Below, piece by piece: positions 1-26,233 of a stretch of 55,554 bases of DNA. Position 1 is the first letter of the stretch. Each line of letters opens with the position of its first letter. A program made the translations under genes and the position numbers. The DNA lies in IMG/VR virus record IMGVR_UViG_3300030325_000004, positions 1-55,554 of that record; one strand, 5' to 3'. Origin of the DNA: a virus (taxonomy: Duplodnaviria; Caudoviricetes). The notes beneath the pieces were generated by a model that worked only from the letters and a program-made list of their open reading frames with translations, made no database searches and was not told the origin of the DNA.

Positions 1-96
1 TGCTGCGTGGGATGCTGCGTGGGATGCTGCGCGGGCTCAGCAGGCCGATATTATCCGCAAATACTACCCCAACCCGCCCAAGCCGACGGAGGATAA

Positions 97-1141: not shown

Positions 1142-1309
1142 ATGAAGCCCATCCGCTGGGATAAGCCCCGCCACGAACTGACCCGGAAGCAGCTCAAGCG
1201 GCTGACGAAGGGTGGCCACCATGACGCCCTTCCCGAACTCTCGAAGCGCATCGGTTGGGACCGTGCTGTCGCCGTCTGGAACTCCACCGCCTACCACCGT
1301 CCCGAATAG
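1142..1309 (+). CDS. small hypothetical protein
   Basis: AAGGAG RBS; MKPIRWDKPRHELTRKQLKRL... Confidence 0.65.
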   Translation: MKPIRWDKPRHELTRKQLKRLTKGGHHDALPELSKRIGWDRAVAVWNSTAYHRPE

Positions 1310-1317
1310 GAGCCGAG

Positions 1318-1695
1318 ATGAACCCTATGACTCACGCCGAAGCCCTCAAGGCCCTGTTTGTTGAGGGCGCTGACCTCGACCTGACCGATCGCCACGCCGC
1401 GCAGTATGCGCTGTGCATCGCGGGACAAATCGAGCGCACCGCGCAGACGCTGATCGACAGCCTGGTGGACGGCAACGATGCGATGCGGGCCGTTGCAGAT
1501 GAGCCCATGTTCTCGGAGGAGCCCTTCGCAGATCAGATCCGGCAGACCATCGCGGCACGTCGCATCCCCGTCGCCACGCCAGCAGAGGATGCCGCGCTGG
1601 ATGAGATTGAGGCCCGCCAGGTGGACCTCTCCAAGCCGGAGGTGTTCGACATTCTCGGGTTCACACAGAGCTACTTCAATCAGAAGGGGGCGTGA
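1318..1695 (+). CDS. hypothetical protein
   Basis: AGGAG RBS before ATG 1318. Confidence 0.7.
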   Translation: MNPMTHAEALKALFVEGADLDLTDRHAAQYALCIAGQIERTAQTLIDSLVDGNDAMRAVADEPMFSEEPFADQIRQTIAARRIPVATPAEDAALDEIEARQVDLSKPEVFDILGFTQSYFNQKGA

Positions 1696-1696
1696 C

Positions 1697-1912
1697 ATGC
1701 TCCAGATCCGCGTGATCAAGCCGAGCACCATTTACGGTCCCACCCTCCATGTCGGGCTAGTGGACTCCGATCTGAGCACCTGGGAAACCAACCCATTCGC
1801 GGGCATGACCCAGCCCCTCACCCCTGAGTTTGTGGCGTCCCTTGAGGATGCCGCAGCCAAGGCCAGGGTTGCGCTGAACGAGTGGCAGGCAAAGAAAGGG
1901 AAGTCCGCATGA
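1697..1912 (+). CDS. hypothetical protein
   Basis: AAGGGGG RBS; MLQIRVIKPSTIYG... Confidence 0.65.
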   Translation: MLQIRVIKPSTIYGPTLHVGLVDSDLSTWETNPFAGMTQPLTPEFVASLEDAAAKARVALNEWQAKKGKSA

Positions 1913-2118
1913 ACGCCGAAGAACGAGCAATCACCGCTCTCCACATGCTCAGACGCGCAGATGACCATGGGGAAGATTGCGGCATAGACGACTGCGCGAT
2001 TTGCGATGCCAGGGCGGTCCTCCAGGGTTCGTTCCTCCCGTGGGACATCCTGGCCGAGGCTAAGGCCGCTGGCGTAACGCTGGAATGGAAGGGTCCCTAT
2101 TTGGAGGTTATCGCATGA
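1909..2118 (+). CDS. hypothetical protein
   Basis: ATGA coupling; HxxxCxxxxCxxC motif. Confidence 0.6.
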   Translation: MNAEERAITALHMLRRADDHGEDCGIDDCAICDARAVLQGSFLPWDILAEAKAAGVTLEWKGPYLEVIA

Positions 2119-2259
2119 ACGCAGCTGAAAAGCCCTTGCGCCGTGCCCTGGAGAGATCTAACATCTTCCTCTCGGGAGGCTTGTGATGCCACACCGATGC
2201 ACACTAAAGGCAGATGACTACTACTACAGAGGGCCGATGCCCCGGAAACGGAAGGCCGC

Positions 2260-2445
2260 ATGATCCGAGCATTCAAGGCAGCCGTGATCCTGTTCTGCAT
2301 CGGCATGTGGAGCGCGTGGATTTGCGGGGCCATCATCGCCGCCAGCGACAACATCGCATACAGCCGAAAGAAGGCAGAGCAGGTCCGGCAATACAACGCC
2401 TCCATTGAGGCCATGACGAAGATTCAGAAGGAGATGCCGCGATGA
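2260..2445 (+). CDS. small membrane protein
   Basis: N-terminal hydrophobic helix; coupled to the next gene. Confidence 0.6.
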   Translation: MIRAFKAAVILFCIGMWSAWICGAIIAASDNIAYSRKKAEQVRQYNASIEAMTKIQKEMPR

Positions 2446-2825
2446 GCTGGCTCTGGTTCGCCATCATCCTAGCCGCCAGCCTCGCCGTGTGCGCCGGGAT
2501 CTACCGGGAGCAGGTTGAGCGGGACGAGGCGAGGCGACAGGAACGGGCGCGGGAACGCAGGGAACGCCTGGAGGATGCCGTCCGCGTCCTGGGAGAGCAC
2601 TACGCCGCAATGGTGGCCGTGGATGACGCCAAGGTGAAGGCATTCCGGGAGAACCGCGCCGAACTGAAGGCCCTCTGGGACGAGCAATACGCCCTGCTGA
2701 CAGGCTTCCGTAACGGCGACTTTGCTGAGTGGTATACGCATAGACTCTGGTGCCGGAACCGTGATCACTGGAGCTTCATCATCGCGGCGAAAGGCCGGAT
2801 CGTGCCGGATGAGATGAGCGCGTAA
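2442..2825 (+). CDS. membrane-anchored coiled-coil hypothetical protein; its stop codon lies in the left box of attC-1
   Basis: ATGA coupling, N-terminal TM helix, TAA inside GCGTAAC. Confidence 0.7.
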   Translation: MSWLWFAIILAASLAVCAGIYREQVERDEARRQERARERRERLEDAVRVLGEHYAAMVAVDDAKVKAFRENRAELKALWDEQYALLTGFRNGDFAEWYTHRLWCRNRDHWSFIIAAKGRIVPDEMSA

Positions 2826-2915
2826 CGGAGCCATTTAACCGGCCCCAGCGCAGGCCGGACCTTCAGAAACCACTTCGCACCCGCGCTGGGGTCCGAGTTG
2901 ATGCAGGGGTTAGGC
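2820..2915 (-). repeat. attC-like site 1 (96 bp)
   Basis: GCGTAAC...ttaaccggccccagcg / cgctgggg(t)ccg(a)gttga...GTTAGGC. Confidence 0.8.
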
Positions 2916-3242
2916 ATGGACGCAATCACTGATAAGGCCGCCATCAAGGCCATCCTGGACGACTACGACTGGCGGGAAGCGGTCAACTACGCATCCTGGA
3001 ACGCCGACGAAGTGGCCGAAATCCTGGCCATGGAAGAGGGCGAAAACGATGGGAATAACTGGCTCATGGTCGTGAAGCTCGAAGACGGGCGCTTCAGCTT
3101 CCTCTCTGCCGGTTGCGACTACACGGGCTGGGATTGCCAAGCCGGTGGAAGCAGCGACGAAAAGGGGAGTTTGGAAGAACTCATCCGAATGGGAATGGGG
3201 CAGGAGGACCGGGACAGGTTGGGATACAAGATCGACGCCTAA
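2916..3242 (+). CDS. cassette 1: hypothetical protein (SAGCDYTGWDC motif)
   Basis: ATG directly after GTTAGGC; TAA inside the next GCCTAAC. Confidence 0.8.
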   Translation: MDAITDKAAIKAILDDYDWREAVNYASWNADEVAEILAMEEGENDGNNWLMVVKLEDGRFSFLSAGCDYTGWDCQAGGSSDEKGSLEELIRMGMGQEDRDRLGYKIDA

Positions 3243-3331
3243 CGAAAAAAGTTCAGCGGCCAAGCCGCTTGAACACCCTTAACAATTTACAACACTTACG
3301 CGGCTTGGTCCGCTGGAACTAGAGGTTAGGC
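3237..3331 (-). repeat. attC-like site 2 (95 bp)
   Basis: GCCTAAC...gttcagcggccaagccgc / gcggcttgg(t)ccgctg(g)aac tagag GTTAGGC. Confidence 0.9.
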
Positions 3332-3334
3332 GTC

Positions 3335-3505
3335 ATGCAAATTAAGCAAGAACCATCATTCAAACCCGTGATCATTACGCTGAACACCCGTGAGGAAGCT
3401 GAAGATTTCTGGGCGATGCTACTAGATAAGGAATCAACACTAAAGGGCGGTCCCAAATCTCTAGCAATCAAGTTGAGCAACTGGTTCACGGAGCATTACC
3501 GTTGA
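3335..3505 (+). CDS. cassette 2: 56-aa hypothetical protein
   Basis: MQIKQEPSFKPVIITLNTREEAEDFW...HYR*; fills the space between sites 2 and 3; below the ORF-track cutoff. Confidence 0.75.
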   Translation: MQIKQEPSFKPVIITLNTREEAEDFWAMLLDKESTLKGGPKSLAIKLSNWFTEHYR

Positions 3506-3506
3506 C

Positions 3507-3606
3507 GCCTAACGACAGGCATAACCGGCCCTTGGGCCAGGAAGGACGAACCATGAACCAGAAAAACGAACAGGCCCAAGGGTCCGCGTTGAGCGGAGGG
3601 TTGGGT
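3507..3606 (-). repeat. attC-like site 3 (100 bp), RBS and ATG in loop
   Basis: GCCTAAC...aaccggcccttgggcc / ggcccaaggg(t)ccg(c)gtt...GTTGGGT. Confidence 0.85.
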
Positions 3607-3795
3607 GCGGCCACGGACCCTTGGTATCAGCACGAAGCAATTGATAGATGCCACGTCATTAATTGCATGATCTGGGACCACCTTGGAACACATCCATTTG
3701 TGTCCGCATATCCGGAGATCCAATCGCTAATCCTCAAGGCATCGGAACTACTGGGTGATGCGTACCAAAAAATGGGGCGGATAGAACTGAAGTAG
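3553..3795 (+). CDS. cassette 3: hypothetical protein
   Basis: AAGGA RBS and ATG inside site 3; ...HEAIDRCHVINCMIWDHLGTHP... Confidence 0.75.
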   Translation: MNQKNEQAQGSALSGGLGAATDPWYQHEAIDRCHVINCMIWDHLGTHPFVSAYPEIQSLILKASELLGDAYQKMGRIELK

Positions 3796-3796
3796 C

Positions 3797-3854
3797 GCCC
3801 AACTTCGGAGCTAGCTCGGCCCGATAGGGTCCGACGCTGAGCGACCAGTTGGGC
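3797..3854 (-). repeat. attC-like site 4 (58 bp)
   Basis: GCCCAAC...gctagctcggccc gata ggg(t)ccga(c)gct(g)agc gacca GTTGGGC. Confidence 0.9.
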
Positions 3855-3885
3855 CGCGAACCCCTAACCAATTGAAGGAGAAAAT

Positions 3886-4290
3886 ATGATCCAAGAATTT
3901 GTGAAGGCGTGGGAATCACGGAAGGGCGAAATCGAAGCGATGTTCCGGGCCAAGCACCCCGAGGATTATGCGGAGATCGTCAAGGCTGTAGTGATGATCT
4001 TGAACGCTGATTCGGAAGACTACGACCGGCCCGACCCGGAGCGGATTACCGGCATTGACCACGGCCATTACCAGGGCACTCTACTTTTCGTCATCGCCGG
4101 GTCGGGCTATCAACCCGATAACTTCTGGTTTGTGAAGGTGGGCTACGGGAGCTGCTCTGGATGCGACACCCTGGAGCGCATCAGGGACTATGACGATGCC
4201 CCGCCCTCAGATGAGCAGGTCGCGGACTACATGACGCTGGCCCTGCATATCGTCCAGGGATTGAAGCCGCTGGATGGTGAAACCGTCTGA
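3886..4290 (+). CDS. cassette 4: hypothetical protein (YQG...YGSCSGCD motif)
   Basis: AAGGAG RBS; Cys motif seen in small phage proteins. Confidence 0.85.
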   Translation: MIQEFVKAWESRKGEIEAMFRAKHPEDYAEIVKAVVMILNADSEDYDRPDPERITGIDHGHYQGTLLFVIAGSGYQPDNFWFVKVGYGSCSGCDTLERIRDYDDAPPSDEQVADYMTLALHIVQGLKPLDGETV

Positions 4291-4297
4291 ACGAGCG

Positions 4298-4392
4298 GCC
4301 CAACGAAAAGCTCACCGGCCCTGCCGCAGGTGAGCCACAACCCTTCAAATTTCGGACACGCGGCAGGGTCCGAGTGGAGCGCCCGGTTGGGC
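4298..4392 (-). repeat. attC-like site 5 (95 bp)
   Basis: GCCCAAC...gctcaccggccctgccgc / gcggcaggg(t)ccg(a)gtg(g)agc gcccg GTTGGGC. Confidence 0.9.
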
Positions 4393-4405
4393 GCGGGAGA
4401 TAAAA

Positions 4406-4642
4406 ATGAACTTTGGACAAGCTCTTGAAGCACTGAAGCTGGGATCAAAGGTGAGCCGTTCGGGATGGAACGGGAAGGGGCTCTGGCTGGAGCTGCAACA
4501 CCCGGACGAGAACAGCAAGATGACTCTGCCCTACATCTTCATCAACTATCCAGATGACGCGAAGACCACGCCCGGCGCACGGGTGCCCTGGTTGGCCTCG
4601 CAGACGGATGTGCTGGCCGAGGATTGGACCATCAACCTTTAG
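4406..4642 (+). CDS. tad2: cassette 5: DUF2829 / Tad2-like (Thoeris anti-defence 2) protein
   Basis: MNFGQALEALKxGxKVxRxGWNGKG...PWLASQTDVLAEDW is the DUF2829 signature. Confidence 0.85.
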   Translation: MNFGQALEALKLGSKVSRSGWNGKGLWLELQHPDENSKMTLPYIFINYPDDAKTTPGARVPWLASQTDVLAEDWTINL

Positions 4643-4643
4643 C

Positions 4644-4719
4644 GCCCAACTTTGGCATTAACCCGGCGGCGCAGCCGTCCGGTGAGCGAAGCGAACGCAG
4701 GTTGAATGCCCGGTTGGGC
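4644..4719 (-). repeat. attC-like site 6 (76 bp; identical to site 10)
   Basis: GCCCAAC tttg gcattaacc...ggtt(g)aat gcccg GTTGGGC. Confidence 0.88.
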
Positions 4720-4738
4720 GCGAACAATGGAGGAACAC

Positions 4739-4921
4739 ATGAAGCCCGAAATTGAAATCTACTTCGCCAAGTTCTACCGCCGGGATCCAGGTCTGGGGTG
4801 GCGGTTCACACTCTTCGAGATCTACAACTTCGATTCCGGAGCGGAGTGGGCACTATTCGCCATCGACTGGCAACCCGAAAACGCGCCCGATGGTAAGCGC
4901 CTAACGGTCAACCTGCTCTAG
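4739..4921 (+). CDS. cassette 6: hypothetical protein
   Basis: GGAGG RBS; MKPEIEIYFAKFYRRDPG...; TAG abuts site 7. Confidence 0.75.
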   Translation: MKPEIEIYFAKFYRRDPGLGWRFTLFEIYNFDSGAEWALFAIDWQPENAPDGKRLTVNLL

Positions 4922-4922
4922 C

Positions 4923-5020
4923 GCCCAACGATGCAGCTAACCGGCCCCGCCGTGGGCCAGAAAGGAACGATGTGAGCGAAGGCAACGCAGGCGGGGTCCG
5001 AGTTGATGCAAGGGTTGGGC
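4923..5020 (-). repeat. attC-like site 7 (98 bp), RBS and GTG in loop
   Basis: GCCCAAC...taaccggccccgcc / ggcgggg(t)ccg(a)gttg...GTTGGGC. Confidence 0.85.
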
Positions 5021-5211
5021 GCCCATCCTGCCCATTGTGCGGGAAGCCGCTGGAACGAGTGACGAATACCGGAGGCTGGATGAATGATGACCAGTTCGAT
5101 GCTTCAAAAGCTGGGGATTGGTTTTGCGAGTGCAGCGATAACGGGCGAGGGAATGCACCCTTCGCCTACTTCTGGACCCGCGAACTCGAATCCGGGCTCT
5201 TAGCCCACTGA
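4972..5211 (+). CDS. cassette 7: Zn-ribbon-like hypothetical protein
   Basis: AAAGGA RBS and GTG within site 7; CPLCG...WFCEC. Confidence 0.75.
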   Translation: MSEGNAGGVRVDARVGRPSCPLCGKPLERVTNTGGWMNDDQFDASKAGDWFCECSDNGRGNAPFAYFWTRELESGLLAH

Positions 5212-5212
5212 C

Positions 5213-5337
5213 GCCCAACGATAAAGCTGACCGGCCCAAGGGCCACCGAAACAACAGGAGGAGACATGCAAGACGAGCAGAACGCGGGAGAGCGGAAGAT
5301 GGAAGCCCTTGGGTCCGAGTTGAGCGACCGGTTGGGC
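5213..5337 (-). repeat. attC-like site 8 (125 bp), RBS and ATG in loop
   Basis: GCCCAAC...gctgaccggcccaagggc / gcccttggg(t)ccg(a)gtt(g)agc gaccg GTTGGGC. Confidence 0.87.
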
Positions 5338-5604
5338 GGTGCTCTCGAAGAGTCGCTGGTGGACACGCTTGTTACCAAGTGCGAATCCCTTCAGGCCCGC
5401 GTGAAAGAGCTTGAGGGGAAGCTGGCGGAAGAGGAACACAACCACCTTGGAACACTCGGCCAGCGTGACCAGTGCTATGAATGGGCCGACAAATTCGCCG
5501 ATGCCATCGCCGCGCATTTCCGGGAGGACATTGGCGAGCACTCGAACATGAACGACCCCTGGCGGAACGCCCTTGACTTGATCGAAGGGACATTCTGCCG
5601 GTGA
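5266..5604 (+). CDS. cassette 8: coiled-coil protein with an IGEHSNxNxPW domain (resembles Ead/Ea22-type phage proteins)
   Basis: AGGAGG RBS inside site 8; WADKFADAIAAHFREDIGEHSNMNDPWRNAL. Confidence 0.75.
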   Translation: MQDEQNAGERKMEALGSELSDRLGGALEESLVDTLVTKCESLQARVKELEGKLAEEEHNHLGTLGQRDQCYEWADKFADAIAAHFREDIGEHSNMNDPWRNALDLIEGTFCR

Positions 5605-5605
5605 C

Positions 5606-5703
5606 GCCCAACGGAGCCAGTTCACCGGACCCGCAGCCGGTGAACCACAACCTTTCAAATATCGGAATTGCTGCGGGGTCCGAGTGGAACTGGATGGTTG
5701 GAC
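5606..5703 (-). repeat. attC-like site 9 (98 bp)
   Basis: GCCCAAC...ccagttcaccggacccgcagc / gctgcggggtccg(a)gtg(g)aactgg...GTTGGAC; loop resembles site 5. Confidence 0.85.
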
Positions 5704-5725
5704 GCGATGCCTGGAGGAGAACGCG

Positions 5726-5902
5726 ATGAGTTGTGACCGACGATGTTTCGACAAAGAGAGCAAGTGGTACGGGCACGAAGACTGCAACACCTGCCCTGGA
5801 GCTGATGTATGGAGGCCCAGGAACAAGCCGGGGCAGGTGCAGAAGCAAGAGGACCCCGACCCCTGGATGGGTAGCGACCTGGCCGACGAAGGGGACAAGT
5901 AG
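5726..5902 (+). CDS. cassette 9: Cys-rich small protein
   Basis: GGAGGAG RBS; MSCDRRC...CNTC. Confidence 0.7.
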   Translation: MSCDRRCFDKESKWYGHEDCNTCPGADVWRPRNKPGQVQKQEDPDPWMGSDLADEGDK

Positions 5903-5903
5903 C

Positions 5904-5979
5904 GCCCAACTTTGGCATTAACCCGGCGGCGCAGCCGTCCGGTGAGCGAAGCGAACGCAGGTTGAATGCCCGGTTGGGC
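5904..5979 (-). repeat. attC-like site 10 (76 bp; identical to site 6)
   Basis: 5900-5997 is identical to 4640-4737 (98 bp). Confidence 0.9.
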
Positions 5980-5997
5980 GCGAACAATGGAGGAACA

Positions 5998-6186
5998 GTG
6001 CCGAGAATTAAGGTTGAATTTGAAGTCGAAATCCCCTCCGATGTGCGGATCAACGACGACAACCTGGAAGAGTGGCTGCGCTTCTGGTTGAACGACAACG
6101 GCGACATGAGTATGGAGAACCCACTGGATGATCTGGTGGGTGAGGTTGAACCCGTGTTCGGGACTTTTGAATGGGAATGGCGATAG
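5998..6186 (+). CDS. cassette 10: small acidic protein
   Basis: GGAGG RBS and GTG; very Asp/Glu-rich. Confidence 0.75.
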   Translation: MPRIKVEFEVEIPSDVRINDDNLEEWLRFWLNDNGDMSMENPLDDLVGEVEPVFGTFEWEWR

Positions 6187-6187
6187 C

Positions 6188-6253
6188 GCCCAACTTCGGA
6201 GCTAGCTCGGCCACGGCGCAGCCGGGGTCCGACGCTGAGCGACTTGGTTAGGG
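6188..6253 (-). repeat. attC-like site 11 (66 bp; same family as site 4)
   Basis: GCCCAACttcggagctagctcggcc...ggg(t)ccga(c)gct(g)agc gacttg GTTAGGG. Confidence 0.88.
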
Positions 6254-6273
6254 CGCTGAACAACGGAGGATGG

Positions 6274-6858
6274 ATGAACTGGCAGGATCGGATCGAAAAC
6301 TACAAGAGAGAGACAGGCTTTCCAGAGGCACTTTTTGTGGGGGCCGATGGCCGCGTCGTTGGGACCTGGATCATGGGGAACGACTACCGCGTGAAGTCCA
6401 CCTATTACGGCGGCTACCCGGCTGGATACCTGCGACGTATCAAATCCCTGTTCCCGGAGAAGGCCAGTGTCTTACATCTGTTTAGCGGGAAGGTGGACAC
6501 GGCAACCTTTCCAGGTAAGACAGTGGATATCAACCCCGACAACCAGCCTGATTTCTTGGATGATGCCCAACACCTTACGGGCGTCCCCGTCGAGGATTTC
6601 GATCTAGTGTTGGCAGATCCGCCGTATTCCGTCGAAGATTGCGAGCACTACCAGACCAGCATGATCAAGCGAAACGTGGTCATGAAGGCCCTTGGAAGGC
6701 GCTTGAAACCCGGAGCCCACGTTGTCTGGCTCGACCAGGTGCTACCCATGTATCGCAAGGATCAATTCGCCCTTGAGGCGGCTATCGGAATGCAGAAATC
6801 CACAAACCATCGGTTCCGAATCATCACGATTTTCCGAAAGCTAGACGAAGCGCCCTAA
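6274..6858 (+). CDS. cassette 11: DNA N6-adenine/N4-cytosine methyltransferase-like protein
   Basis: VLHLFSG (motif I-like) and VLADPPY (motif IV); TAA inside CCCTAAC. Confidence 0.8.
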   Translation: MNWQDRIENYKRETGFPEALFVGADGRVVGTWIMGNDYRVKSTYYGGYPAGYLRRIKSLFPEKASVLHLFSGKVDTATFPGKTVDINPDNQPDFLDDAQHLTGVPVEDFDLVLADPPYSVEDCEHYQTSMIKRNVVMKALGRRLKPGAHVVWLDQVLPMYRKDQFALEAAIGMQKSTNHRFRIITIFRKLDEAP

Positions 6859-6875
6859 CTAGCGCTAGGCGTACT
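6850..6875 (-). other. terminal core site of the array, possible attI-like site
   Basis: Minus strand reads gtac GCCTAGC gcta GTTAGGGcgc: a core box plus a degenerate inverted box, with no attC hairpin. Confidence 0.45.
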
Positions 6876-7020
6876 AATAAATTTACCCTTTACGCACCGC
6901 AAAACCAATAACCCCGTCTAGCCACAACGCCGGGTGGTTCGCCTAAACAACTAAACATGCCGGGTTGGGTCGGCCTTGACACGCCTAACAAATTGCCCAA
7001 CATTATGGGTGAGGTGATCG

Positions 7021-7470
7021 ATGCCGACAATCATGGTGAAAGGCCGGGAGGTAATCCTTGATGAAGAGGATATCCCGCTGCTTGAGTCCAGATCTTGGTT
7101 CTGGACTCCACAGGGTTACTTGGCAACATCAATCCCCATCAGCAAGGGGAAGCGCCGGACGGTATGCTTCCACCGGCTAGTGCTTGATGATCCGCCAACA
7201 CCAGCGGTAGACCACATCAACAGGGTTAAGCACGATAACCGTAGGTGCAATCTCCGCGCTTGTTCTGACCGAGAAAACAATCTTAACCGTCGGGGTTGGA
7301 CCAACCCAGAAAAGGGCGTTTCCTTCCGGCGCGGGAAGTGGCAAGTTATTGTCCGGGAGGGTAGCAAAATAAGATGGCTAGGGGCCTACAAAGATAAGGA
7401 TGAAGCCGTGCGGGTTGCCACCACTTATTTTGTAGCTCGGGACAACTCACCAACCGACCTAACACCATAA
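7021..7470 (+). CDS. free-standing HNH homing endonuclease (HNH plus AP2-like DNA-binding domain)
   Basis: HRLVL...VDHINRVKHDNRRCNLR...N; KGVSFRRGKWQ...WLGAY. Confidence 0.9.
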   Translation: MPTIMVKGREVILDEEDIPLLESRSWFWTPQGYLATSIPISKGKRRTVCFHRLVLDDPPTPAVDHINRVKHDNRRCNLRACSDRENNLNRRGWTNPEKGVSFRRGKWQVIVREGSKIRWLGAYKDKDEAVRVATTYFVARDNSPTDLTP

Positions 7471-7560
7471 ATCCAGCCGCAATCACGAACCGCCCCGCGC
7501 AGCAACCCCAGCGAATCCAGCCCGGAGCGGTTCGCCTAACCCACGAAACGGAGCAAGCCC

Positions 7561-7719
7561 ATGACCATCCCCCTTTCAGATATGGAGCATTGCCCGCGCT
7601 GTTGGGCCTACTTCACTAAGGGGTTCAACCATCAATGCCCGCCCCTCCTGGCGGCCCTGGTTTCGCTCCACGAACAGAAGAAAAACACCATCGAACCCGA
7701 AAGCGACCCCAACCCCTAG
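7561..7719 (+). CDS. small hypothetical protein
   Basis: GGAG RBS; CPRC...HQC. Confidence 0.5.
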   Translation: MTIPLSDMEHCPRCWAYFTKGFNHQCPPLLAALVSLHEQKKNTIEPESDPNP

Positions 7720-7727
7720 GAGCCCCC

Positions 7728-8102
7728 ATGACCAACAAACCCGCGCCCCTGGTGCTCGTCAAGCATGGCGCAACTCGGACAGTCCTGCTCATTCATAGGT
7801 GGGCCGTCAAAATCCCGTCTTGTATTGAGTGGCGGCTGTTTTTGCAGGGCCTTCTTGCCAATATGCAGGAACGCAAGTTTGCGGGTACCGAATGGCCGGA
7901 GTTTTGCCCCGTCATCTTCGGTGTGCCGGGAGGGTGGCTTCTGGTAATGCGCCGCGCTCAGCCACTGACCGATGACGAGTGGGAACGCTTCGAGCCCTAC
8001 ACGTTCTGCACACCCAAAGATCGGATCATCCCGGCAGAAGCCAAACGAGACAGTTTCGGCACCCTAAATAAAAAAATTGTGGCTGTCGACTACGGCAACT
8101 GA
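7728..8102 (+). CDS. hypothetical protein, possibly a degenerate kinase-like fold
   Basis: GATRTVLL...AVKIP...ANMQE...IVAVDYG resembles minimal kinase-fold phage proteins (inference). Confidence 0.7.
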   Translation: MTNKPAPLVLVKHGATRTVLLIHRWAVKIPSCIEWRLFLQGLLANMQERKFAGTEWPEFCPVIFGVPGGWLLVMRRAQPLTDDEWERFEPYTFCTPKDRIIPAEAKRDSFGTLNKKIVAVDYGN

Positions 8103-8121
8103 ACTAACTTAGGAGCCCCCC

Positions 8122-8808
8122 ATGACCAACGAACCGAAGCACCCGTGCCCTGAACGCGCCGCGCCCCTGGTGCCGTCCATGCCCGAATGCGATGTCTTGA
8201 GATACGGACAAACCGTTGTGATTGAAGGGCTGCGAGACTACGCCCGCCAGTGTGCCGAGATCGCCCAGGCCCAGGCGCAACGTGCGGATGGGGCGGAGCG
8301 CCGAGCCGAATACTGGAAGGCTGAACACAACGCCGCGAACGCAGAGATCGACAAACTCCACGCCACCCTCGCCCAGCGTGACCGCGAGGTGCTGGCGCTG
8401 CGGGAGGCCGCCAAAGAATCGGCTATCGCCTGGGAAGTTTGCCGATCTATCCATGAAACCTGGGCCAAGGGCAAGGACCCGCTGTATAAAACAAGACATC
8501 TCGATTTTGTGCGTGCCGCAGACAAAGCTCGCGAAGCCCTCGCCTCCACCGCGCAGGCCGGGGCAGAGGCCGAGCGCAAGATTAAAGAGTGGTGTGTCGA
8601 ATCCGCATGGAAATGGTGGAACGATCGCAGCCCCGAGCGGCCCTGTGGGCGAGATACCCTTGAGGCCGCCATCCTCGGCACGGGCGGGGAGGCCGTAGAC
8701 CTATCCAGATGCCCCAAGTGCGGAGGCCCTGCCGACAACGGGCACGACCGATGTCTGCCGCCGAATCCCTACTTCTGCACCAAATGCGAGAGCGGGGAGG
8801 AGCGATGA
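8122..8808 (+). CDS. coiled-coil hypothetical protein with C-terminal Zn finger
   Basis: AGGAG RBS; CPKCGGPADNGHDR...YFCTKC. Confidence 0.75.
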   Translation: MTNEPKHPCPERAAPLVPSMPECDVLRYGQTVVIEGLRDYARQCAEIAQAQAQRADGAERRAEYWKAEHNAANAEIDKLHATLAQRDREVLALREAAKESAIAWEVCRSIHETWAKGKDPLYKTRHLDFVRAADKAREALASTAQAGAEAERKIKEWCVESAWKWWNDRSPERPCGRDTLEAAILGTGGEAVDLSRCPKCGGPADNGHDRCLPPNPYFCTKCESGEER

Positions 8809-8975
8809 CCCGCCCCTACGCCACTGAATTGCGGCAGAATCATCGAGTATGAACGGATGAGATTTTGGGTCAGACTTCTTTCTTTGATTTTCTCTCTACT
8901 GGTAGTTGGGACCTTGGTATCCGCGATTGCCCGCGATATGAAGCGAAAGATCCCAACCCAGATCAAGGAGCACAA

Positions 8976-13017: not shown

Positions 13018-14384
13018 TGACTGACGATCTCTGGGAGGGCATGGATGTTGATCAGAAGCCGCGCATTAAAGCCGTCCGGTCCTTGCCGGAGGACATTGAG
13101 GCGGAAAGGATGTTACTTTCCTGCATCTTCGCACCTGGATGCGACCATTATGCCGTAGAAGCTGCTGACGAGGTCCACCCGGATTGGTTTCACAATCCCC
13201 GTTATCGGATGGTTTTTGAGGCTGGATGCCGCCTGGCCAATTCGGGCACCGAAATTTCAGTTGTGGCCCTGAATGATGAACTCGGCAAAGACGCCCACAA
13301 GGTCGGTGGATTCACTGGATTGGTGGGGATGTTCCAGGACATGACGGCAGAGGACTGGAGGCCCTTCGCGAGAATTATCCGGGCCAAGTGGGAGGCCAGA
13401 ACAGCATTACTCGCTCTTTCTCGCGCCCAAGAATCAATCGAGTCGGACGGCGAGGTCGGCACTAGCCTAACCGGGCTTATGCCGCTCCTTGGGGCACTGG
13501 AGCCCCAGAACCGGGCCATTGTGGACCATTCTGACCTGTTAGACTTGGCCTCAAGTGGCATCGCCCTAATCCCCCCTGAGCGGGCCTCGAACCGTCCGAT
13601 TTTCGGGGTAGACTTCTTGGACTCGCAGTTGAATGCCACCGCTGGCCGGTTTGGGGTGATCGCCGCCAAGACTTCTGCCGGGAAATCCTCGATTGCCTAT
13701 CAGATCGCTACCGAGTCCTGTGCCCACAATAGGCGTGTTCTTTTGGTCAGCCTGGAATCCGACAAGGAAGAGGTCGTGGGGGCTATCGCCGCAAACTTGG
13801 GGCACCTGAACCGGAGCGCGGTCATGCGCTATGGGACATCTGGGTTTGAATCGGACGCACTCCCCTTGATCAAGGCTAATTTTGCTGGATATTACGCATC
13901 ATCGGGGTCAAGTTGGGATTCTCTGGAAAGGGCGATACGGGCCGAACATCGTAGGCGGCCCTTTGAAGTAGTGATCGTGGATTACTTCACACTCCTCCAG
14001 CCCCCAGAATACAAGGGCCGAAATCTAGCTTCTCTATATGGCGAAATTTCCAAGGCCGGTAAGCGTCTGGCCCAAGAGCTTGAATGCTCAGTGATCTTTC
14101 TGTCGCAGTTCAACCGTGGAATCGAGGACGGGCAGGAGCCCTACCTTGAGAACTTGCGGGAAACCGGCCAGCTCGAACAGGATGCGGATTGGGTGGTGCT
14201 AATGTGGTCCAAACCCGATGACGAGCCAGATGGAACCCGGTTGGTCTACGCGAAAGGCGCGAAGAACCGGGGCGGGAAACGGAACTTCCGGGGTAAGATG
14301 ACCTTCTACCCAGCGGAGAGCAGATTCATCGAGAACTTCTCTGAAACCGACCCCTTCAAGCCTTCCCGCCGTGGCAGGGCTTGA
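13017..14384 (+). CDS. dnaB: DnaB-like replicative helicase
   Basis: LPEDIEAERMLL, Walker A AAKTSAGKS, VIVDYF, LSQFNR, LRETGQLEQDAD, AKNR. Confidence 0.95.
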   Translation: MTDDLWEGMDVDQKPRIKAVRSLPEDIEAERMLLSCIFAPGCDHYAVEAADEVHPDWFHNPRYRMVFEAGCRLANSGTEISVVALNDELGKDAHKVGGFTGLVGMFQDMTAEDWRPFARIIRAKWEARTALLALSRAQESIESDGEVGTSLTGLMPLLGALEPQNRAIVDHSDLLDLASSGIALIPPERASNRPIFGVDFLDSQLNATAGRFGVIAAKTSAGKSSIAYQIATESCAHNRRVLLVSLESDKEEVVGAIAANLGHLNRSAVMRYGTSGFESDALPLIKANFAGYYASSGSSWDSLERAIRAEHRRRPFEVVIVDYFTLLQPPEYKGRNLASLYGEISKAGKRLAQELECSVIFLSQFNRGIEDGQEPYLENLRETGQLEQDADWVVLMWSKPDDEPDGTRLVYAKGAKNRGGKRNFRGKMTFYPAESRFIENFSETDPFKPSRRGRA

Positions 14385-23302: not shown

Positions 23303-26233
23303 TCACCCTATTTTCCATGCAGAGGCCCCGCCATCATAATACACAGGGACATGGTTAGTGCCCCCACCGGTTACAACGGAGGCGAAAGTGGTTGCGGTTG
23401 CATCCGAGACAAAGGCCCTCATGCCATCAGAACCGGCAGGTAGGGTAGCTACGGTGTAAACAGAAGTCTTGGTGGTAGTCGCCGTGAGCGCGCCCGTGGA
23501 AGCTTTCCCATCCGCGCCCACGAAGAACTTCTCAACCCCTGCATTCCGCAAACTCAGCAGTTTCGCACCGGCGTTTGACAATGCGGTATCTGTGTCCAGG
23601 AAATGCGCTACGGCACTCGCTCCATCAGCCACGCGCCCATCGAATCGTAGCCGCTCCGTTGCCTCGATCTGCCCACTGATTAACGCGCCTGACTTGGTTC
23701 CGCTGACGGTGGGATTGTCCGTGATCTTGAGGACATCGCCGGTTACGCTGAACGCGCCATAAGGGAAACGCCGGATCCATACGGTGTTGGATGCGTTGTT
23801 CGAGGCTAGTGCCCCAGCGATATAAAAAACACCGCCGTAGCTGTTCGTGCTGTTGCCGTTGACGCCGACACTGTTCGTGCTGTTGCCGTTGACGCCGACA
23901 CTGTTCGTGCTGTTGCCGTAGACGCCGACATTGTTCGTGCTGTTGCCGTTGACGCCGGTACTGTTCGTGCTGTTGCCGTAGACGCCGACATTGTTCGTGC
24001 TGTTGCCGTAGACGCCGACATTGTTCGTGCTGTTGCCGTAGACGCCGACATTGTTCGTGCTGTTGCCGTTGACGCCGGTACTGTTCGTGCTGTTGCCGTT
24101 GACGCCGACATAGGTGCGCCCATACAGCGCGAACCAGCCCGTTTTTCCTGTTTCCAGGGTCCAATCGGTTCCGTTTGTAGAATACGCATGGCGGTTCGTC
24201 CCCGTAGCAGCCCGGTCCATGCTAACGGTCCCGCCTGTTGCAGCAGACCCGCCCTGGATGATTAACCAGTAGCTAGTCCCATTCACCAGCGCCGTAGAAA
24301 CCGCAAACTGATAGATAGCGTAGGACGTGGTGAGCGATCCGATCCGGATATAGCTTGTGCCTGAAATCAACGTCCCCGGTGACCCCGCAACGTCCGTGTA
24401 AATCCGCCCATAAATCATAGCAGTGGGATTTGTCAGCGTTGCCGATACCTTGAGCCGTACGCCGAATGATCGGATGTTGTAATCACCAGAAGCCGTGAAC
24501 CGAATAGCCTCGTAAACATTGTCCAGAACCTCATCCACGCCGGTATTGTTTTCGGTTTGAAGCGTGGAGGCGGTCTGAGAGCCATAAACGCTGGGCACGG
24601 TAGCCTGGTCAACGGTTTGGACCGCGTTGAAATAGGGCGCGGTGATCTGTTTACCGGCTCCAATACCACCGGGGGTCGTGATCGCGCCAGTAGTGGTGGA
24701 GGTTGAATCCGTGGCGTTGGTGATGGATGCGCTCGTAGCCGTGAGCGCATCCATGGACAGGTTGCCGATCCCGGTATCCCCCGCCTTGTTGATGGGGGTG
24801 AAGCCTAGTGCAGTCTGGTAGTAAGACGGTAATTGGCCACCTAGTTTGGCCGAATCAACCGCCTGCTGGGAAGCGCCGAGTGCGCCCACCATCGAATAGG
24901 TAATCCCGCCAACCGTTCCGGTAAACGTCGGGCTATTCATCCTTACAAAATCCCCCGTCCCGGTCCCGGTATATTCCGCGCTGGTGAGGTGGTAATACTG
25001 GGAAGCCGTTCCTCCCTGAAGGTTCAACAGGGAGTTATGGTCAGTGACACCAGCGGGCGTAAAAAGCGTCGTGAAGGCTGAATCAATCTGGGTTGCGGTT
25101 GAAGCCCCCTGGCTGACGATGATGCGGCCCACCAGGATCCCGTGGCTCAAGACCTCCGCTGGCAGATTGGCCGGGGGTTGGGATGCCTGAGCCTCGCCCA
25201 GCGAATAGGCCCCTTGGCCAAGGAACACAACCATGTTGTCATCGTTGGTCCCGACTACCCGGTAGATAAAATTGACTGCGTATTTCCCGCCCAGAAGCGT
25301 TTGGAGGTCGGTCCCATCATCGTACTGGGTGTTGTTATATTGGGTGATGGCAGAGAAGGTCCAAACGCCCGCGACATGATATGCCAGCCACATGGTTGCA
25401 GTAGATGAGTTTACCGCAGCCAAAACCGTCTTGACGGCCCCGTGCCACACCGTCCCACCGCCGACCGTGACATACCGCGTGGCGGCTTCACCGAGCCCAA
25501 GTCCACCGGGCTCCACGCGAAACCGCTGGGTCTTTACAATGCTCTGATGAGTTTTGTTCCCCAGCGCGTCACCCAGCTCGTCCCATTCGAGAATGTGCAG
25601 GACCGTCCCACGCCTATAAATGGTATAAACCGGGATAACTGTCGTTTCATTAATGACTGTTACATCGGTGGTGGAGTATATAATGGGCGAACCGGAATTA
25701 TAATCAGCTACAATGAATTGGTTGGTGTTATCAACCATCGTAAGCGTCTGGCCCGCGATGTTGAATCGCTTGATCTTACCGATACCATTCGTATTGGTAA
25801 AGAAGCAATACAGGCCGCTGGTGAAGGTAATGGAACCGTCGCCGTTATCCATATATGTCGGCGCAATCTGCATACCCGCTGACAGACTGGGAGCAGGGTT
25901 AGCCGTTACCACCCAGTCCCCACTCCCGCTGGATTCAATGGTAATGGTCCCATAGGGATAATTGATGAGACGGGTTGCGTTGCCCTCAATCTTGTCGGTC
26001 CCATCGCATACGATGTTGATGTAATTGGTGAGGTTACAGGAGCCATCTTCATCCATGATCATGATGGTCTGCATCATCGTCGTGGACGGGGGAAGATACA
26101 GCATTCGCGGGGCCGTAAGCCCCGAATACATGACCATCCTACCGTTGGCCCCGGTAATCGTATGGTCCGTGTCTACCACCGCTTCTGCGGTGTAATAGAC
26201 AGGGGAATCGTTGGTTACGAGGCTGGTAGTCAC
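23303..26233 (-). CDS. tail fibre / receptor-binding protein
   Basis: Mosaic T/G/S-rich protein; HNSLLNLQGG...YYHLT knot; GVxGNSTNx repeats. Confidence 0.8.
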   Translation of the reverse strand: MTTSLVTNDSPVYYTAEAVVDTDHTITGANGRMVMYSGLTAPRMLYLPPSTTMMQTIMIMDEDGSCNLTNYINIVCDGTDKIEGNATRLINYPYGTITIESSGSGDWVVTANPAPSLSAGMQIAPTYMDNGDGSITFTSGLYCFFTNTNGIGKIKRFNIAGQTLTMVDNTNQFIVADYNSGSPIIYSTTDVTVINETTVIPVYTIYRRGTVLHILEWDELGDALGNKTHQSIVKTQRFRVEPGGLGLGEAATRYVTVGGGTVWHGAVKTVLAAVNSSTATMWLAYHVAGVWTFSAITQYNNTQYDDGTDLQTLLGGKYAVNFIYRVVGTNDDNMVVFLGQGAYSLGEAQASQPPANLPAEVLSHGILVGRIIVSQGASTATQIDSAFTTLFTPAGVTDHNSLLNLQGGTASQYYHLTSAEYTGTGTGDFVRMNSPTFTGTVGGITYSMVGALGASQQAVDSAKLGGQLPSYYQTALGFTPINKAGDTGIGNLSMDALTATSASITNATDSTSTTTGAITTPGGIGAGKQITAPYFNAVQTVDQATVPSVYGSQTASTLQTENNTGVDEVLDNVYEAIRFTASGDYNIRSFGVRLKVSATLTNPTAMIYGRIYTDVAGSPGTLISGTSYIRIGSLTTSYAIYQFAVSTALVNGTSYWLIIQGGSAATGGTVSMDRAATGTNRHAYSTNGTDWTLETGKTGWFALYGRTYVGVNGNSTNSTGVNGNSTNNVGVYGNSTNNVGVYGNSTNNVGVYGNSTNSTGVNGNSTNNVGVYGNSTNSVGVNGNSTNSVGVNGNSTNSYGGVFYIAGALASNNASNTVWIRRFPYGAFSVTGDVLKITDNPTVSGTKSGALISGQIEATERLRFDGRVADGASAVAHFLDTDTALSNAGAKLLSLRNAGVEKFFVGADGKASTGALTATTTKTSVYTVATLPAGSDGMRAFVSDATATTFASVVTGGGTNHVPVYYDGGASAWKIG
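23841..24110 (-). repeat. 9 x 30-bp coding tandem repeat (GV[NY]GNSTN[SN][VT])
   Basis: ctgttcgtgctgttgccgt[ta]gacgccg[ag][ct]a units seen directly. Confidence 0.95.

What the first reader, a model, noticed from the sequence alone, without database searches (positions are those of the whole stretch)
3507..5337. RBS and start codons embedded inside attC hairpin loops
Seen: sites 3, 7 and 8 hold the RBS and start codon in the variable loop (AAGGAcgaaccATG 3553; AAAGGAacgatGTG 4972; AGGAGGagacATG 5266). The right arm is therefore translated as an N-terminal tag (QGSALSGGLG, GVRVDARVG, LGSELSDRLG). In sites 1 and 2 the likely RBS overlaps the right end and ATG follows within 0-3 nt. Inference: the recombination site doubles as a translation-initiation module, and RNA folding or upstream ribosomes could gate expression. 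These tags could be used to find similar arrays from protein data alone.
Basis: partly seen in the sequence, partly recalled or inferred. Interest (0 to 1): 0.7.

Follow-up and report, generated by a model that had tools for sequence, protein, structure and literature searches.

The report
Start codons inside phage attC hairpins
A lytic phage carries a string of integron recombination hairpins turned the opposite way round from bacterial ones, so each hairpin is the leader of the gene behind it, and in about a third of them the ribosome-binding site and start codon sit in the hairpin's loop.

Summary
Window 2820-6254 holds 11 attC-type hairpins between small + strand genes of a 55.5-kb lytic phage record that has no integrase. 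A covariance model built only from attC sites of Geothrix/Holophagaceae chromosomal integrons finds all 11, all on the + strand, and nothing else in the window. In sites 3, 7 and 8 an SD plus ATG/GTG lies in the open apical loop, and the frame runs out through the 3' arm into the gene.

The phage coding strand is the attC bottom strand. The crossover point (RYYYAA|C) is therefore at the left end of each site, and the attC belongs to the cassette of the gene behind it. Contigs from four other metagenomes break at exactly those left boxes.

Loop starts recur in other phage contigs: 22 of 61 sites, against 0 of 61 on the opposite strand and 3 of 133 in host arrays. Homologues of all three window genes begin where the attC ends, and no other start codon is available for 4972-5211. 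Elsewhere its GTG start is ATG.

Translation from the loop is very likely but not shown directly. Gating by RNA folding is untested. I rate this a new variant of a known kind, since attC clusters without an integrase (CALINs) are already described in phages.

The parts
2820..2915 (+). attC site 1. Stop TAA of gene 2442-2825 lies inside the left R box GCGTAAC. ATG 2916 follows the right R box directly, with the SD-like spacer GCAGGGG before the box.
   Evidence: 50.0 bits, E 3.5e-11
3237..3331 (+). attC site 2. TAA of gene 2916-3242 lies inside the left R box GCCTAAC. ATG 3335 is 3 nt after the right box.
   Evidence: 59.5 bits. Contig pieces 3236/3241-3515 in other runs equal site 2 + gene 3335-3505.
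3507..3606 (+). attC site 3 with SD AAGGA 3542-3546 and ATG 3553 in a roughly 30-nt open loop. The 3' arm is read as GSALSGGLG.
   Evidence: P unpaired: SD 0.82, ATG 0.92; 44.5 bits
3553..3795 (+). Gene of 80 aa (phrog_5142). Family profile position 9 aligns to residue 23, so about 14 N-terminal residues are attC-coded extra.
3797..3854 (+). attC site 4 (short loop). A separate SD and ATG 3886 lie downstream.
   Evidence: 30.0 bits
4298..4392 (+). attC site 5, with the conserved non-coding loop CCACAACCCTTCAAATTTCGGA. Followed by SD and ATG 4406.
   Evidence: 62.3 bits
4406..4642 (+). Tad2-like (Thoeris anti-defence 2-like) cassette gene
   Evidence: PF11195, E 2.3e-24, 86.2 bits against a cut-off of 25
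4644..4719 (+). attC site 6, a variant with a 16-nt insertion in the 3' arm. Identical to site 10, and the identity runs on for 18 nt behind the right R box, through the RBS of the next gene.
   Evidence: 14.1 bits, E 0.14
4923..5020 (+). attC site 7 with SD AAAGGA 4961-4966 and GTG 4972 in the loop. The 3' arm is read as GVRVDARVG.
   Evidence: 58.1 bits. GTG is ATG in three other metagenome runs (4971 T>C, 4972 G>A).
4972..5211 (+). Zinc-ribbon protein of 79 aa. The invariant CPxC begins 3 residues after the attC ends. There is no other in-frame start before it.
5213..5337 (+). attC site 8 with SD AGGAGG 5256-5261 and ATG 5266, plus a second in-frame ATG at 5299, in the loop. The 3' arm is read as GSELSDRLG.
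   Evidence: 74.7 bits; the loop aligns with the host 124-nt attC loop
5266..5604 (+). Gene of 112 aa. The conserved body starts at ALEESLVDTL directly behind the attC. Orthologues carry different loop-coded leaders.
5606..5703 (+). attC site 9 (non-coding loop of the site-5 type), followed by SD GGAGG and ATG 5726.
   Evidence: 47.9 bits. Contig piece 5606-5910 in run X10 equals site 9 + gene + the next left R box.
5904..5979 (+). attC site 10 (identical to site 6), followed by GTG 5998.
6188..6254 (+). attC site 11 (site-4 type), followed by the DNA methyltransferase gene 6274-6858.
   Evidence: 22.6 bits, E 7.4e-4
6853..6859 (+). R-box-like CCCTAAC holding the TAA stop of the methyltransferase. 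This is the right end of the variable array; the conserved flank starts at 6856/6857 in all four runs laid.

Best explanation
Window 2820-6859 is an integron cassette array without an integrase (a CALIN) in the early region of a lytic phage. Its attC sites belong to the attC family of the chromosomal integrons of Geothrix/Holophagaceae, the probable hosts.

The array is mirrored relative to bacterial arrays. The genes lie on the strand that is the attC bottom (recombinogenic) strand. The crossover point RYYYAA|C is therefore at the 5' end of each site, and a cassette is [attC, then its gene, then stop codon plus RYYYAA]. The attC is thus the whole 5' leader of its gene, and the translation signals have moved into it in one of three ways:
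- into the sequence-free variable loop (sites 3, 7, 8; about 36-40% of phage sites);
- into the purine-rich 3' spacer, with the ATG 0-4 nt behind the right R box (sites 1, 2);
- onto a short added stretch behind the site (sites 4, 5, 6, 9, 10, 11).

With a loop start, the mRNA hairpin shows SD and AUG/GUG single-stranded at its tip. The ribosome then reads through the 3' arm, giving a polar, probably disordered N-terminal extension: a 7-21-residue leader followed by GSELSxGLG or GVRVDxxVG/R.

Shown: family membership, orientation, cassette boundaries, recurrence of loop starts, and where the homologues begin. Inferred: that ribosomes start there, and that the host integrase moves these cassettes.
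For: Family and orientation.
- 5 of 5 such genomes tested have an integron integrase: TIGR02249, 459-472 bits against a cut-off of 265.
- In the three loci where an array lies beside intI, the array is divergent from intI, and the phage + strand reading of the site is on the strand opposite to the array's top strand.
- Model R2 was built from 44 host sites only. It finds 11 of 11 window sites on the + strand. The same sites read on the - strand score at most 17 bits, against 58-62 bits on +. There is no other match in 55.5 kb.
- The host alignment has 96.6% standard pairs and 9 covarying pairs.

Gene strand.
- ORFs of at least 60 aa ending at the 5' R box, phage: bottom strand only 35, top strand only 3, both 14, of 61.
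- The same count for hosts: bottom strand only 9, top strand only 62, both 12, of 133.

Cassette unit.
- Contig pieces from other metagenomes run 3236/3241-3515 (runs X4, X5) and 5606-5910 (run X10), which is left R box to next left R box.
- Gene 3335-3505 keeps site 2 upstream but is followed by other attCs in runs X10 and X6.
- The related phage G008 shares both flanks of the array but not its content.

Loop starts.
- 26 of 65 phage sites have one, 19 of them with no alternative start.
- The opposite-strand control is 0 of 61. Host sites give 3 of 133.
- The SD region is unpaired with P 0.55-0.90 in all 15 sites folded, against 0.18-0.38 for the arms.
- Gene 4972: 5 of 7 homologues start M(P)xCPxC right where the attC ends. 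C20 and C23 are invariant. There is no other in-frame start.
- The GTG start is ATG in 3 other runs and in L095.
- In L002 the arm has lost one base and the ATG register compensates.
- L005 and L016 differ in the leader at 2 bases, both synonymous.
- Orthologues of gene 5266 have different leaders on the same body, and P0014 without a tag starts 7 residues before ALEESL.
- AlphaFold2 gives pLDDT below 50 for residues 1-8 and 12-14 of the 4972 protein, and 78-86 for the 10-residue blocks covering residues 21-70.
Against: - There is no expression or protein data. No RNA run holding the stretch was listed.
- In the GSELS frame the arm itself holds an in-frame TTG behind a G-rich stretch, so a start inside the arm cannot be excluded for sites 3 and 8.
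- In 7 of 26 loop-start sites a later in-frame or nearby start with an SD also exists.
- SD-to-ATG spacing in site 8 is only 4 nt.
- The start codon itself is predicted paired in 2 of 15 sites (P unpaired 0.01 and 0.09).
- Sites are related by descent, so counts are not independent events.
- Some IMG/VR contigs used for the counts may not be phages.
- No recombinase is present in the phage, so recombination in the phage rests on breakpoints in assemblies. Sharing of short conserved sequence could also shape those breakpoints.
- Sites 6 and 10 are identical beyond the right R box, through the RBS, and stand in front of unrelated genes. A simple one-crossover picture does not explain this.
Confidence: 0.78

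Rival explanations
1. The loop ATG/GTG codons are incidental. Translation really begins downstream of the sites, or at the TTG inside the 3' arm, and the 'tags' are never made.
For: An in-frame TTG lies in the arm of all GSELS-frame sites. 7 of 26 loop-start sites also have a later candidate start, for example ATG 5080 with GGAGG in gene 4972-5211. The host consensus attC also carries an ATG in its loop that is mostly followed by a stop, so a loop ATG alone can be a family relic.
Against: - A start at 5080 would remove the invariant CPxC pair.
- The conserved parts of all three window proteins begin directly behind the attC with no start codon there.
- SD motifs differ between sites but keep their spacing.
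- The start shows ATG/GTG polymorphism.
- An arm indel is compensated by a shift in the ATG register.
- Loop starts occur in 0 of 61 sites on the opposite strand and 3 of 133 in hosts.
Confidence: 0.1
2. The hairpins descend from attC sites but no longer act as recombination sites in the phage. They work as RNA elements between cistrons (processing or stabilising hairpins, as RNase III sites do in the T7 early region; that comparison is recalled). The array varies by homologous recombination at the conserved arms. The loop starts would still be real.
For: The phage has no integrase. The hairpins are strong as RNA. One breakpoint lies inside a site, at the T bulge (3583 in runs X4 and X5). Sites 6 and 10 are identical past the right R box. 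L005 and L016 share only the attC, with both flanks different.
Against: Both R boxes, the spacers and the bulged bases are kept as in host sites, and an RNA role would not require this. Contig pieces start and end at left R boxes, as the integrase crossover predicts. One site of the related phage G008 scores as high as host sites do (137.7 bits), which suggests recent exchange. No Rfam family matches and no + strand terminator-like site was found.
Confidence: 0.2
3. The array is host DNA carried along by mis-assembly or mis-binning, not part of the phage.
For: Similar arrays occur in contigs binned as Acidobacteria (L052, L055, L095).
Against: The array is inside a 55.5-kb record with terminase, portal, helicase and exonuclease genes, rated 97% complete. 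The related phage G008 has an array at the same place between the same flanks. Gene strand and start-codon layout differ sharply from host arrays. Three runs hold 99% of the sampled words of 2400-7400, though these may be the source samples.
Confidence: 0.03

Closest known systems
[quoted passage not shown] 2023, Front Microbiol, PMC9892861; abstract and section 3.4 read)
   Same: attC sites in lytic phage genomes without an integrase. Orphan DNA methyltransferases occur among the cassettes. The idea that phages draw on the cassette pool is shared.
   Different: [quoted passage not shown] It describes same-direction cassettes as the typical bacterial layout. In the parts I read there is nothing about start codons inside attC or about a mirrored gene strand. 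Here there are 11 sites of the host's own attC family, genes on the attC bottom strand, and translation signals inside the sites.
ORF-11 / ORF-18 in attI1 of class 1 integrons (as described in the review PMC8876359; passages read)
   Same: A functional SD plus ATG sits inside an integron recombination site and serves the expression of the cassette behind it.
   Different: There it is a separate short ORF in attI that helps by translational coupling. Here the start codon of the cassette protein itself lies in the loop of an attC, and the arm is part of the protein.
attC hairpins as obstacles to ribosomes in cassette mRNAs (Jacquier et al. 2009, recalled; Carvalho et al. 2024 preprint 10.1101/2024.03.26.586746, seen in a search listing only)
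   Same: attC structure in the mRNA affects translation of the next cassette.
   Different: Those cases concern top-strand transcripts, with the attC behind its gene acting as a barrier. Here the bottom-strand hairpin carries the initiation signals in its loop.
Sedentary chromosomal integron repeats such as the Vibrio cholerae repeats (recalled)
   Same: Host Geothrix arrays have a near-uniform 124-nt attC (81% mean column identity) next to intI.
   Different: The phage sites keep the arms but have diverse loops of 58-134 nt and the opposite gene strand.

Membership tests
integron attC recombination site | Inverted core sites RYYYAAC ... GTTRRRY at the two ends | tested here: met
   8 of 11 sites have exact, fully complementary boxes. 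Site 9 has one mismatch between its boxes. Sites 1, 3 and 11 were missed by that script and were found by the model; their boxes were read off the sequence.
integron attC recombination site | Imperfect inner stem with extrahelical bases on one arm, an unpaired central spacer, and a variable terminal loop | tested here: met
   Folds show a 7-9-bp R stem, an internal loop, an L stem with single-base bulges only in the 3' arm (T, A/C, G), and loops of very different length. The same pairs hold in host sites with covariation. The comparison with the canonical T and G bulges rests on a recalled aadA1 59-base element.
integron attC recombination site | Same site family forms arrays next to an integron integrase gene | tested here: met
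   Met in hosts: 5 of 5 genomes have TIGR02249 above the cut-off, with arrays beside intI in L155-L157. A model built from host sites recognises all window sites.
integron attC recombination site | Recombined by an integron integrase at the conserved triplet of one R box | not testable with these tools
   Indirect only: contig pieces in other metagenomes begin and end at left R boxes.
canonical integron cassette (gene followed by its attC, gene on the attC top strand) | ORF on the top strand with the attC at its 3' end | tested here: not met
   Phage genes lie on the bottom-strand side (bottom only 35, top only 3, both 14, of 61). Hosts are the reverse (bottom only 9, top only 62, both 12, of 133). 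Gene 3335-3505 is linked to its upstream attC, not its downstream one.
[quoted passage not shown] | Two or more attC sites with no integron integrase nearby | tested here: met
   11 sites. No PF00589 or TIGR02249 match in the 55.5-kb record.
Tad2-like anti-defence protein (PF11195) | Match to the family profile above the curated cut-off | tested here: met
   86.2 bits against a cut-off of 25, residues 1-76 to profile positions 1-72 of 73. Anti-Thoeris activity was not tested.
intrinsic terminator / known RNA family | GC stem followed by a T run, or a match to an Rfam model | tested here: not met
   0 terminator-like sites on the + strand in 1800-7600. Only one chance-level Rfam match, E 0.22.

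The most novel reading that the evidence does not exclude
Phages of Holophagaceae keep a cassette pool of their own that uses the host's integron integrase but is written in mirror image. Because the genes sit on the attC bottom strand, the attC has become a complete unit between genes: stop codon in the left box, hairpin, then ribosome-binding site and start codon in the loop or 3' spacer. The shared recombination chemistry forces any cassette that crosses between phage and host arrays to land antisense. Phage anti-defence cassettes (for example the Tad2-like one) would then stay silent in host integrons, and host cassettes would stay silent in phages. This would be an orientation-based insulation between two gene pools that share one recombinase.
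Probability: 0.3. Interest if true: 0.85.

Novelty: new variant of a known kind. Interest (0 to 1): 0.68.

Why it matters
Integron cassettes are usually described as a promoterless gene followed by its attC. Here a whole set of phage cassettes is built the other way round, and the recombination site has taken over the job of the 5' leader, including the first 17-25 codons of the window's three loop-start proteins.

If this is right, four things follow:
1. The variable loop of an attC can carry coding and regulatory sequence without leaving the family.
2. Lytic phages can hold sizeable arrays of the host's own attC type. This one includes a Thoeris anti-defence-like gene and an orphan methyltransferase. 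Integrons would then link to the phage side of the arms race as well as to bacterial defence.
3. Gene callers and integron finders that assume the canonical orientation will mis-assign cassettes in such arrays.
4. The short arm-coded peptides (GSELSxGLG, GVRVDxxVR) mark these cassettes in protein data.

Tried and rejected
I rewrote the pattern.
- Two other RYYYAAC..GTTRRRY pairs in the window (7534-7607, 13465-13544) are chance. They show no hairpin context and no model match.
- Judging gene strand from the longest ORF between sites was uninformative for phage contigs (6 bottom, 4 top, 11 ambiguous, of 21), because both strands are open at this G+C content. I replaced it with ORFs ending at the R box.
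- The first covariance model, with the automatic consensus structure, had only 11 pairs and was discarded.
- tblastn of the 12 array proteins against all loci fetched up to that call gave only 3 real homologues.
- The methyltransferase was not found in five related virus records.
- The search for gene 3553-3795 gave only one relative, whose first 40 residues are identical to the window protein's. It therefore says nothing about the start.
- No RNA holder was listed for the stretch, so expression could not be examined.
- Terminators and Rfam families were considered and rejected, as were tyrosine, Y1 and serine recombinases in the phage.
- Literature: six searches found no paper describing start codons inside attC loops or mirrored phage cassette arrays. 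Subscription journals and supplements were not visible.
Full report
**What is there.**
The window is a complete-looking virus record: 55,554 bp, linear, CheckV estimate 97%. It has terminase, portal, internal virion protein, DnaB-type helicase, exonuclease, RNA ligase, an HNH endonuclease and a DNA methyltransferase. It has no tyrosine recombinase, integron integrase, Y1 transposase or serine recombinase.

Between 2820 and 6254, eleven inverted repeats of 58-125 nt separate eleven small + strand genes. Each begins with RYYYAAC and ends with GTTRRRY. As RNA, each folds into a long imperfect hairpin of -37 to -54 kcal/mol. The z-score is -3.3 to -7.0 for nine of the ten folded and -1.4 for site 1. 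From base to tip the hairpin has:
- a 7-9-bp basal stem;
- an internal loop;
- a second stem with single-base bulges only in the 3' arm (GGG-T-CCG-A-GTT-G-AGC);
- a loop of very variable size.

**The quoted observation is exact.**
- Site 3: AAGGA at 3542-3546 and ATG at 3553 lie in a roughly 30-nt open loop.
- Site 7: AAAGGA at 4961-4966 and GTG at 4972.
- Site 8: AGGAGG at 5256-5261 and ATG at 5266, with a second in-frame ATG at 5299.
- In each case the frame continues through the 3' arm into an ORF of 79-112 codons.
- Sites 1 and 2: the ATG follows the right box by 0 and 3 nt, and the purine-rich spacer before the box serves as an SD-like element.

**These are attC sites of the host's family.**
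A right-arm pattern found 26 stretches in IMG/VR.

Five of five such genomes carry an integron integrase: TIGR02249 at 459-472 bits against a cut-off of 265. In three of them a dense array starts just upstream of the divergently transcribed intI.

I built a covariance model from host sites only. A script drew 131 pattern hits from 20 host loci and thinned them to 47. I dropped three Holophaga rows that had been picked on the wrong strand, which left 44. Three of those 44 rows were cut short on the left by my pattern. On that alignment the structure I supplied has 96.6% standard pairs and nine pairs with changes on both sides. Zero of 500 shuffles reached these values, and they collapse when the partner column is slid.

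Searched without filters, the model finds all eleven window sites, full length, all on the + strand. Nine have E of 7.4e-4 or better. The variant sites 6 and 10 have E 0.14. Nothing else matches in the 55.5 kb. The three sites that also matched when read on the - strand score 14-17 bits there, against 58-62 bits on +.

**The twist: the sites are inverted relative to the genes.**
In the host loci the array lies to the right of an intI on the - strand, so the array's top strand is +. The phage + strand reading of the site is found on the - strand there. The model was built in that sense, and it matches the window on +.

The position of the bulges in the 3' arm agrees with this. The order is T, then about six pairs, then G, then three pairs, then a spacer, then the R box. 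This is the layout of the canonical bottom strand as I recall it from the aadA1 59-base element (a recalled comparison, not a tool result).

Gene strand differs accordingly. I counted ORFs of at least 60 aa that end at the 5' R box on only one strand.
- Phage contigs: bottom-strand side 35, top-strand side 3, both 14, of 61 evaluable sites.
- Host arrays: bottom-strand side 9, top-strand side 62, both 12, of 133.

The host figures come from the best 150 of 286 matches, in 54 of the 120 genome loci. I chose those 54 by their Holophagaceae, Geothrix or Acidobacteria titles.

The consequence follows from established integron chemistry, in which cleavage is in the bottom strand at RYYYAA|C. The crossover point is then at the left end of each phage site. 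A phage cassette is the attC, then its gene, then the stop codon plus RYYYAA.

**Independent support for that unit.**
Logan contigs from four other metagenome runs (four studies) were laid on 2400-7400 at 90% likeness or more. They contain single cassettes at near-identity, and the pieces end at left R boxes.
- 3236-3515 (X4), 3241-3515 (X5) and 3239-3531 (X6): site 2, gene 3335-3505 and the left box of the next site.
- 5606-5910 (X10): site 9, its gene and the next left box.
- 5882-6194 (X4).
- 6856/6857 onward in all four runs: the flank behind the methyltransferase's R-like box.

Gene 3335-3505 keeps site 2 in front but is followed by a site-11-like attC in X10 and by a site-1-like loop in X6. 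So the gene is linked to its upstream attC. The related phage G008 shares both flanks (window 1302-2827 and 7444-8828) but, between them, only attC-like matches.

Not everything fits one crossover:
- One breakpoint lies inside a site, at the T bulge (3583, runs X4 and X5).
- Sites 6 and 10 are identical for 18 nt beyond the right box, in front of unrelated genes.
- L005 and L016 share an attC with both flanks different.

Exchange by short homology, or whatever process creates cassettes, must also contribute.

**Are the loop starts real?**
The model-defined sites come from 29 phage sources: the window, L001-L026 and two pieces of G008. These gave 82 matches and 66 distinct sites. Of those, 65 could be classified:

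| Class | Sites |
|---|---|
| SD plus ATG/GTG in the loop only | 19 |
| Loop start plus a later candidate start | 7 |
| ATG/GTG 0-4 nt behind the right box | 10 |
| Start 0-4 nt behind the box plus a later candidate | 1 |
| Separate start 5-60 nt behind the site | 23 |
| None | 5 |

Further points from the counts:
- The same test on the opposite strand gave 0 of 61.
- With a 60-aa threshold the figures are 22 of 61 in phage and 3 of 133 in hosts. The three host cases are copies of one 64-aa antisense ORF in L030. Fisher p is 4e-10, overstated because the sites are related.
- An upstream same-strand ORF stops within -12 to +5 nt of the site start in 56 of 65 sites. In 27 of these the stop is TAA inside the left box.
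- In all 15 loop-start sites folded, the SD region is mostly unpaired (P 0.55-0.90), against 0.18-0.38 for the arms. The start codon itself is paired in two of them.

**Protein evidence for the three window genes.**

*Gene 4972-5211.* Seven homologues were found. Five start M(P)xCPxC exactly where the attC ends. C20 and C23 are invariant. The window has no start codon between the loop GTG and CPLC, and the next Met (5080) lies behind the first Cys pair. The GTG is ATG in three other runs (4971 T>C, 4972 G>A) and in L095. That change keeps a start codon. AlphaFold2 with the 8-row alignment gives pLDDT below 50 for residues 1-8 and 12-14. The 10-residue blocks covering residues 21-70 average 78-86.

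*Gene 5266-5604.* Orthologues P0012 and P0013 carry other leaders (MSQDETKAGSELSEGLGG, MENETQAWSELSAGLGG) on the same body. P0014 lacks the arm-coded part and starts seven residues before ALEESL. In most of the 150 listed hits the widespread domain starts near residue 40 of the query (1172 hits at E of 1e-3 or better).

*Gene 3553-3795.* Position 9 of the phrog_5142 profile aligns to residue 23. In X4 and X5 the same body is preceded by a different loop sequence.

*Elsewhere.* Three homologous proteins (xLPFLGLLS..KTEAIMRGERV) in L001, L002 and L055 all start in loops with different leaders. In L002 the arm has lost the A bulge and the ATG register compensates. L005 and L016 differ in the leader at two bases, both third-codon positions and both synonymous. 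The 16 leaders tallied are 7-21 residues long and polar, with 9 of 153 residues hydrophobic or aromatic.

**How it most likely works.**
Because the attC is the only sequence between the cassette boundary and the gene, it has to serve as the leader. The loop is the one part of an attC whose sequence and length are free. That is established for attC sites in general, and it is seen here as loops that differ in sequence and length on conserved arms (sites of 58 to 134 nt).

Placing SD and start codon in the loop keeps them single-stranded whether or not the hairpin forms. The cost is a short, polar N-terminal extension whose second half is dictated by the arm. Only two of the three frames through GTTGA are open, which gives GSELS.. 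or GVRVD...

The upstream stop codon sits in or next to the left box. A terminating ribosome would therefore open the base of the hairpin, so coupling is possible. Neither that nor gating by folding was tested.

That the host's integrase moves these cassettes is inferred from three things: the conserved site features, the left-box breakpoints, and a G008 site that scores like host sites (137.7 bits).

**What is known already.**
CALINs in virulent phages, recombined by IntI1 in assays and often carrying methyltransferases, were reported by Qi et al. 2023 (PMC9892861; abstract and section 3.4 read). A start signal inside attI1 (ORF-11/ORF-18) that helps the first cassette is described in the review PMC8876359 (passages read).

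I found no report of start codons inside attC loops, of mirrored cassette arrays in phages, or of integrons in Geothrix. This rests on six searches and on passages of 10.1101/2024.07.02.601686. Supplements and subscription journals were not visible.

**Verdict.**
This is a new variant of a known kind, of good interest, and it can be tested with standard assays.

Noticed in passing
window 4298-4392 and 5606-5703; also L002, L003, L016, L020, L055: Sites without a loop start share a conserved loop motif (CCACAACCYTTCAAATWTCGGA). Their loop begins with a perfect complement of the left inner arm (for example GCTCACC...GGTGAGC in site 5, GTTCACCGG...CCGGTGAAC in site 9). A competing small hairpin is therefore possible. 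Function unknown; it could be a switch or a promoter-like element.
   Followed up: partly
window 4640-4738 and 5900-5997: Sites 6 and 10 are identical from the upstream TAG through 18 nt behind the right R box (including the RBS GGAGG), yet they are followed by unrelated genes. They also carry a 16-nt insertion in the 3' arm at the place of the A bulge.
   Followed up: partly
window 4406-4642: One cassette gene is Tad2-like (Thoeris anti-defence 2-like domain, PF11195, E 2.3e-24). The last cassette is an orphan DNA methyltransferase (6274-6858). The array therefore looks like an anti-defence locus.
   Followed up: partly
host loci, e.g. L156:11060-16083, L103, L087 (alignment A2): Geothrix chromosomal integrons have a near-uniform 124-nt attC. 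Read on the bottom strand, its loop holds GGAAGGCAATG followed by CAG GCG GGG TCC GAG TTG AGC. In many copies a stop (TAG/TGA/TAA) comes next, which gives a mini-frame MQAGSELS*. The second ATG of window site 8 (5299) aligns with it.
   Followed up: partly
L055:692-2287 (MAG contig of 342 kb) and L118:4834-4933 (Geothrix MAG): A phage-type array sits inside a large contig binned as Acidobacteria. It has six sites about 300 bp apart, genes on the bottom-strand side, one loop start, and an 82% identical homologue of window gene 3335-3505. Separately, a single mirrored cassette with a loop start sits within a normal host array. These could reflect a prophage, mis-binning or real exchange; this was not resolved.
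   Followed up: partly
window 6860-7020: Behind the array end there is a short palindrome (CTAGCGCTAG), then TTGACA at about 6977 with CATTAT 19 nt on. This is a possible promoter for the HNH gene 7021-7470. The consensus scan did not list it.
   Followed up: no
window 1-35: The record begins with a 15-base unit repeated about twice (TGCTGCGTGGGATGCTGCGTGGGATGCTGCG). It may be an end repeat or an assembly effect.
   Followed up: no
window 23303-31314 (-): Two very large ORFs (976 and 1694 aa) in the structural block have no PHROG match at E of 1e-3 or better.
   Followed up: no
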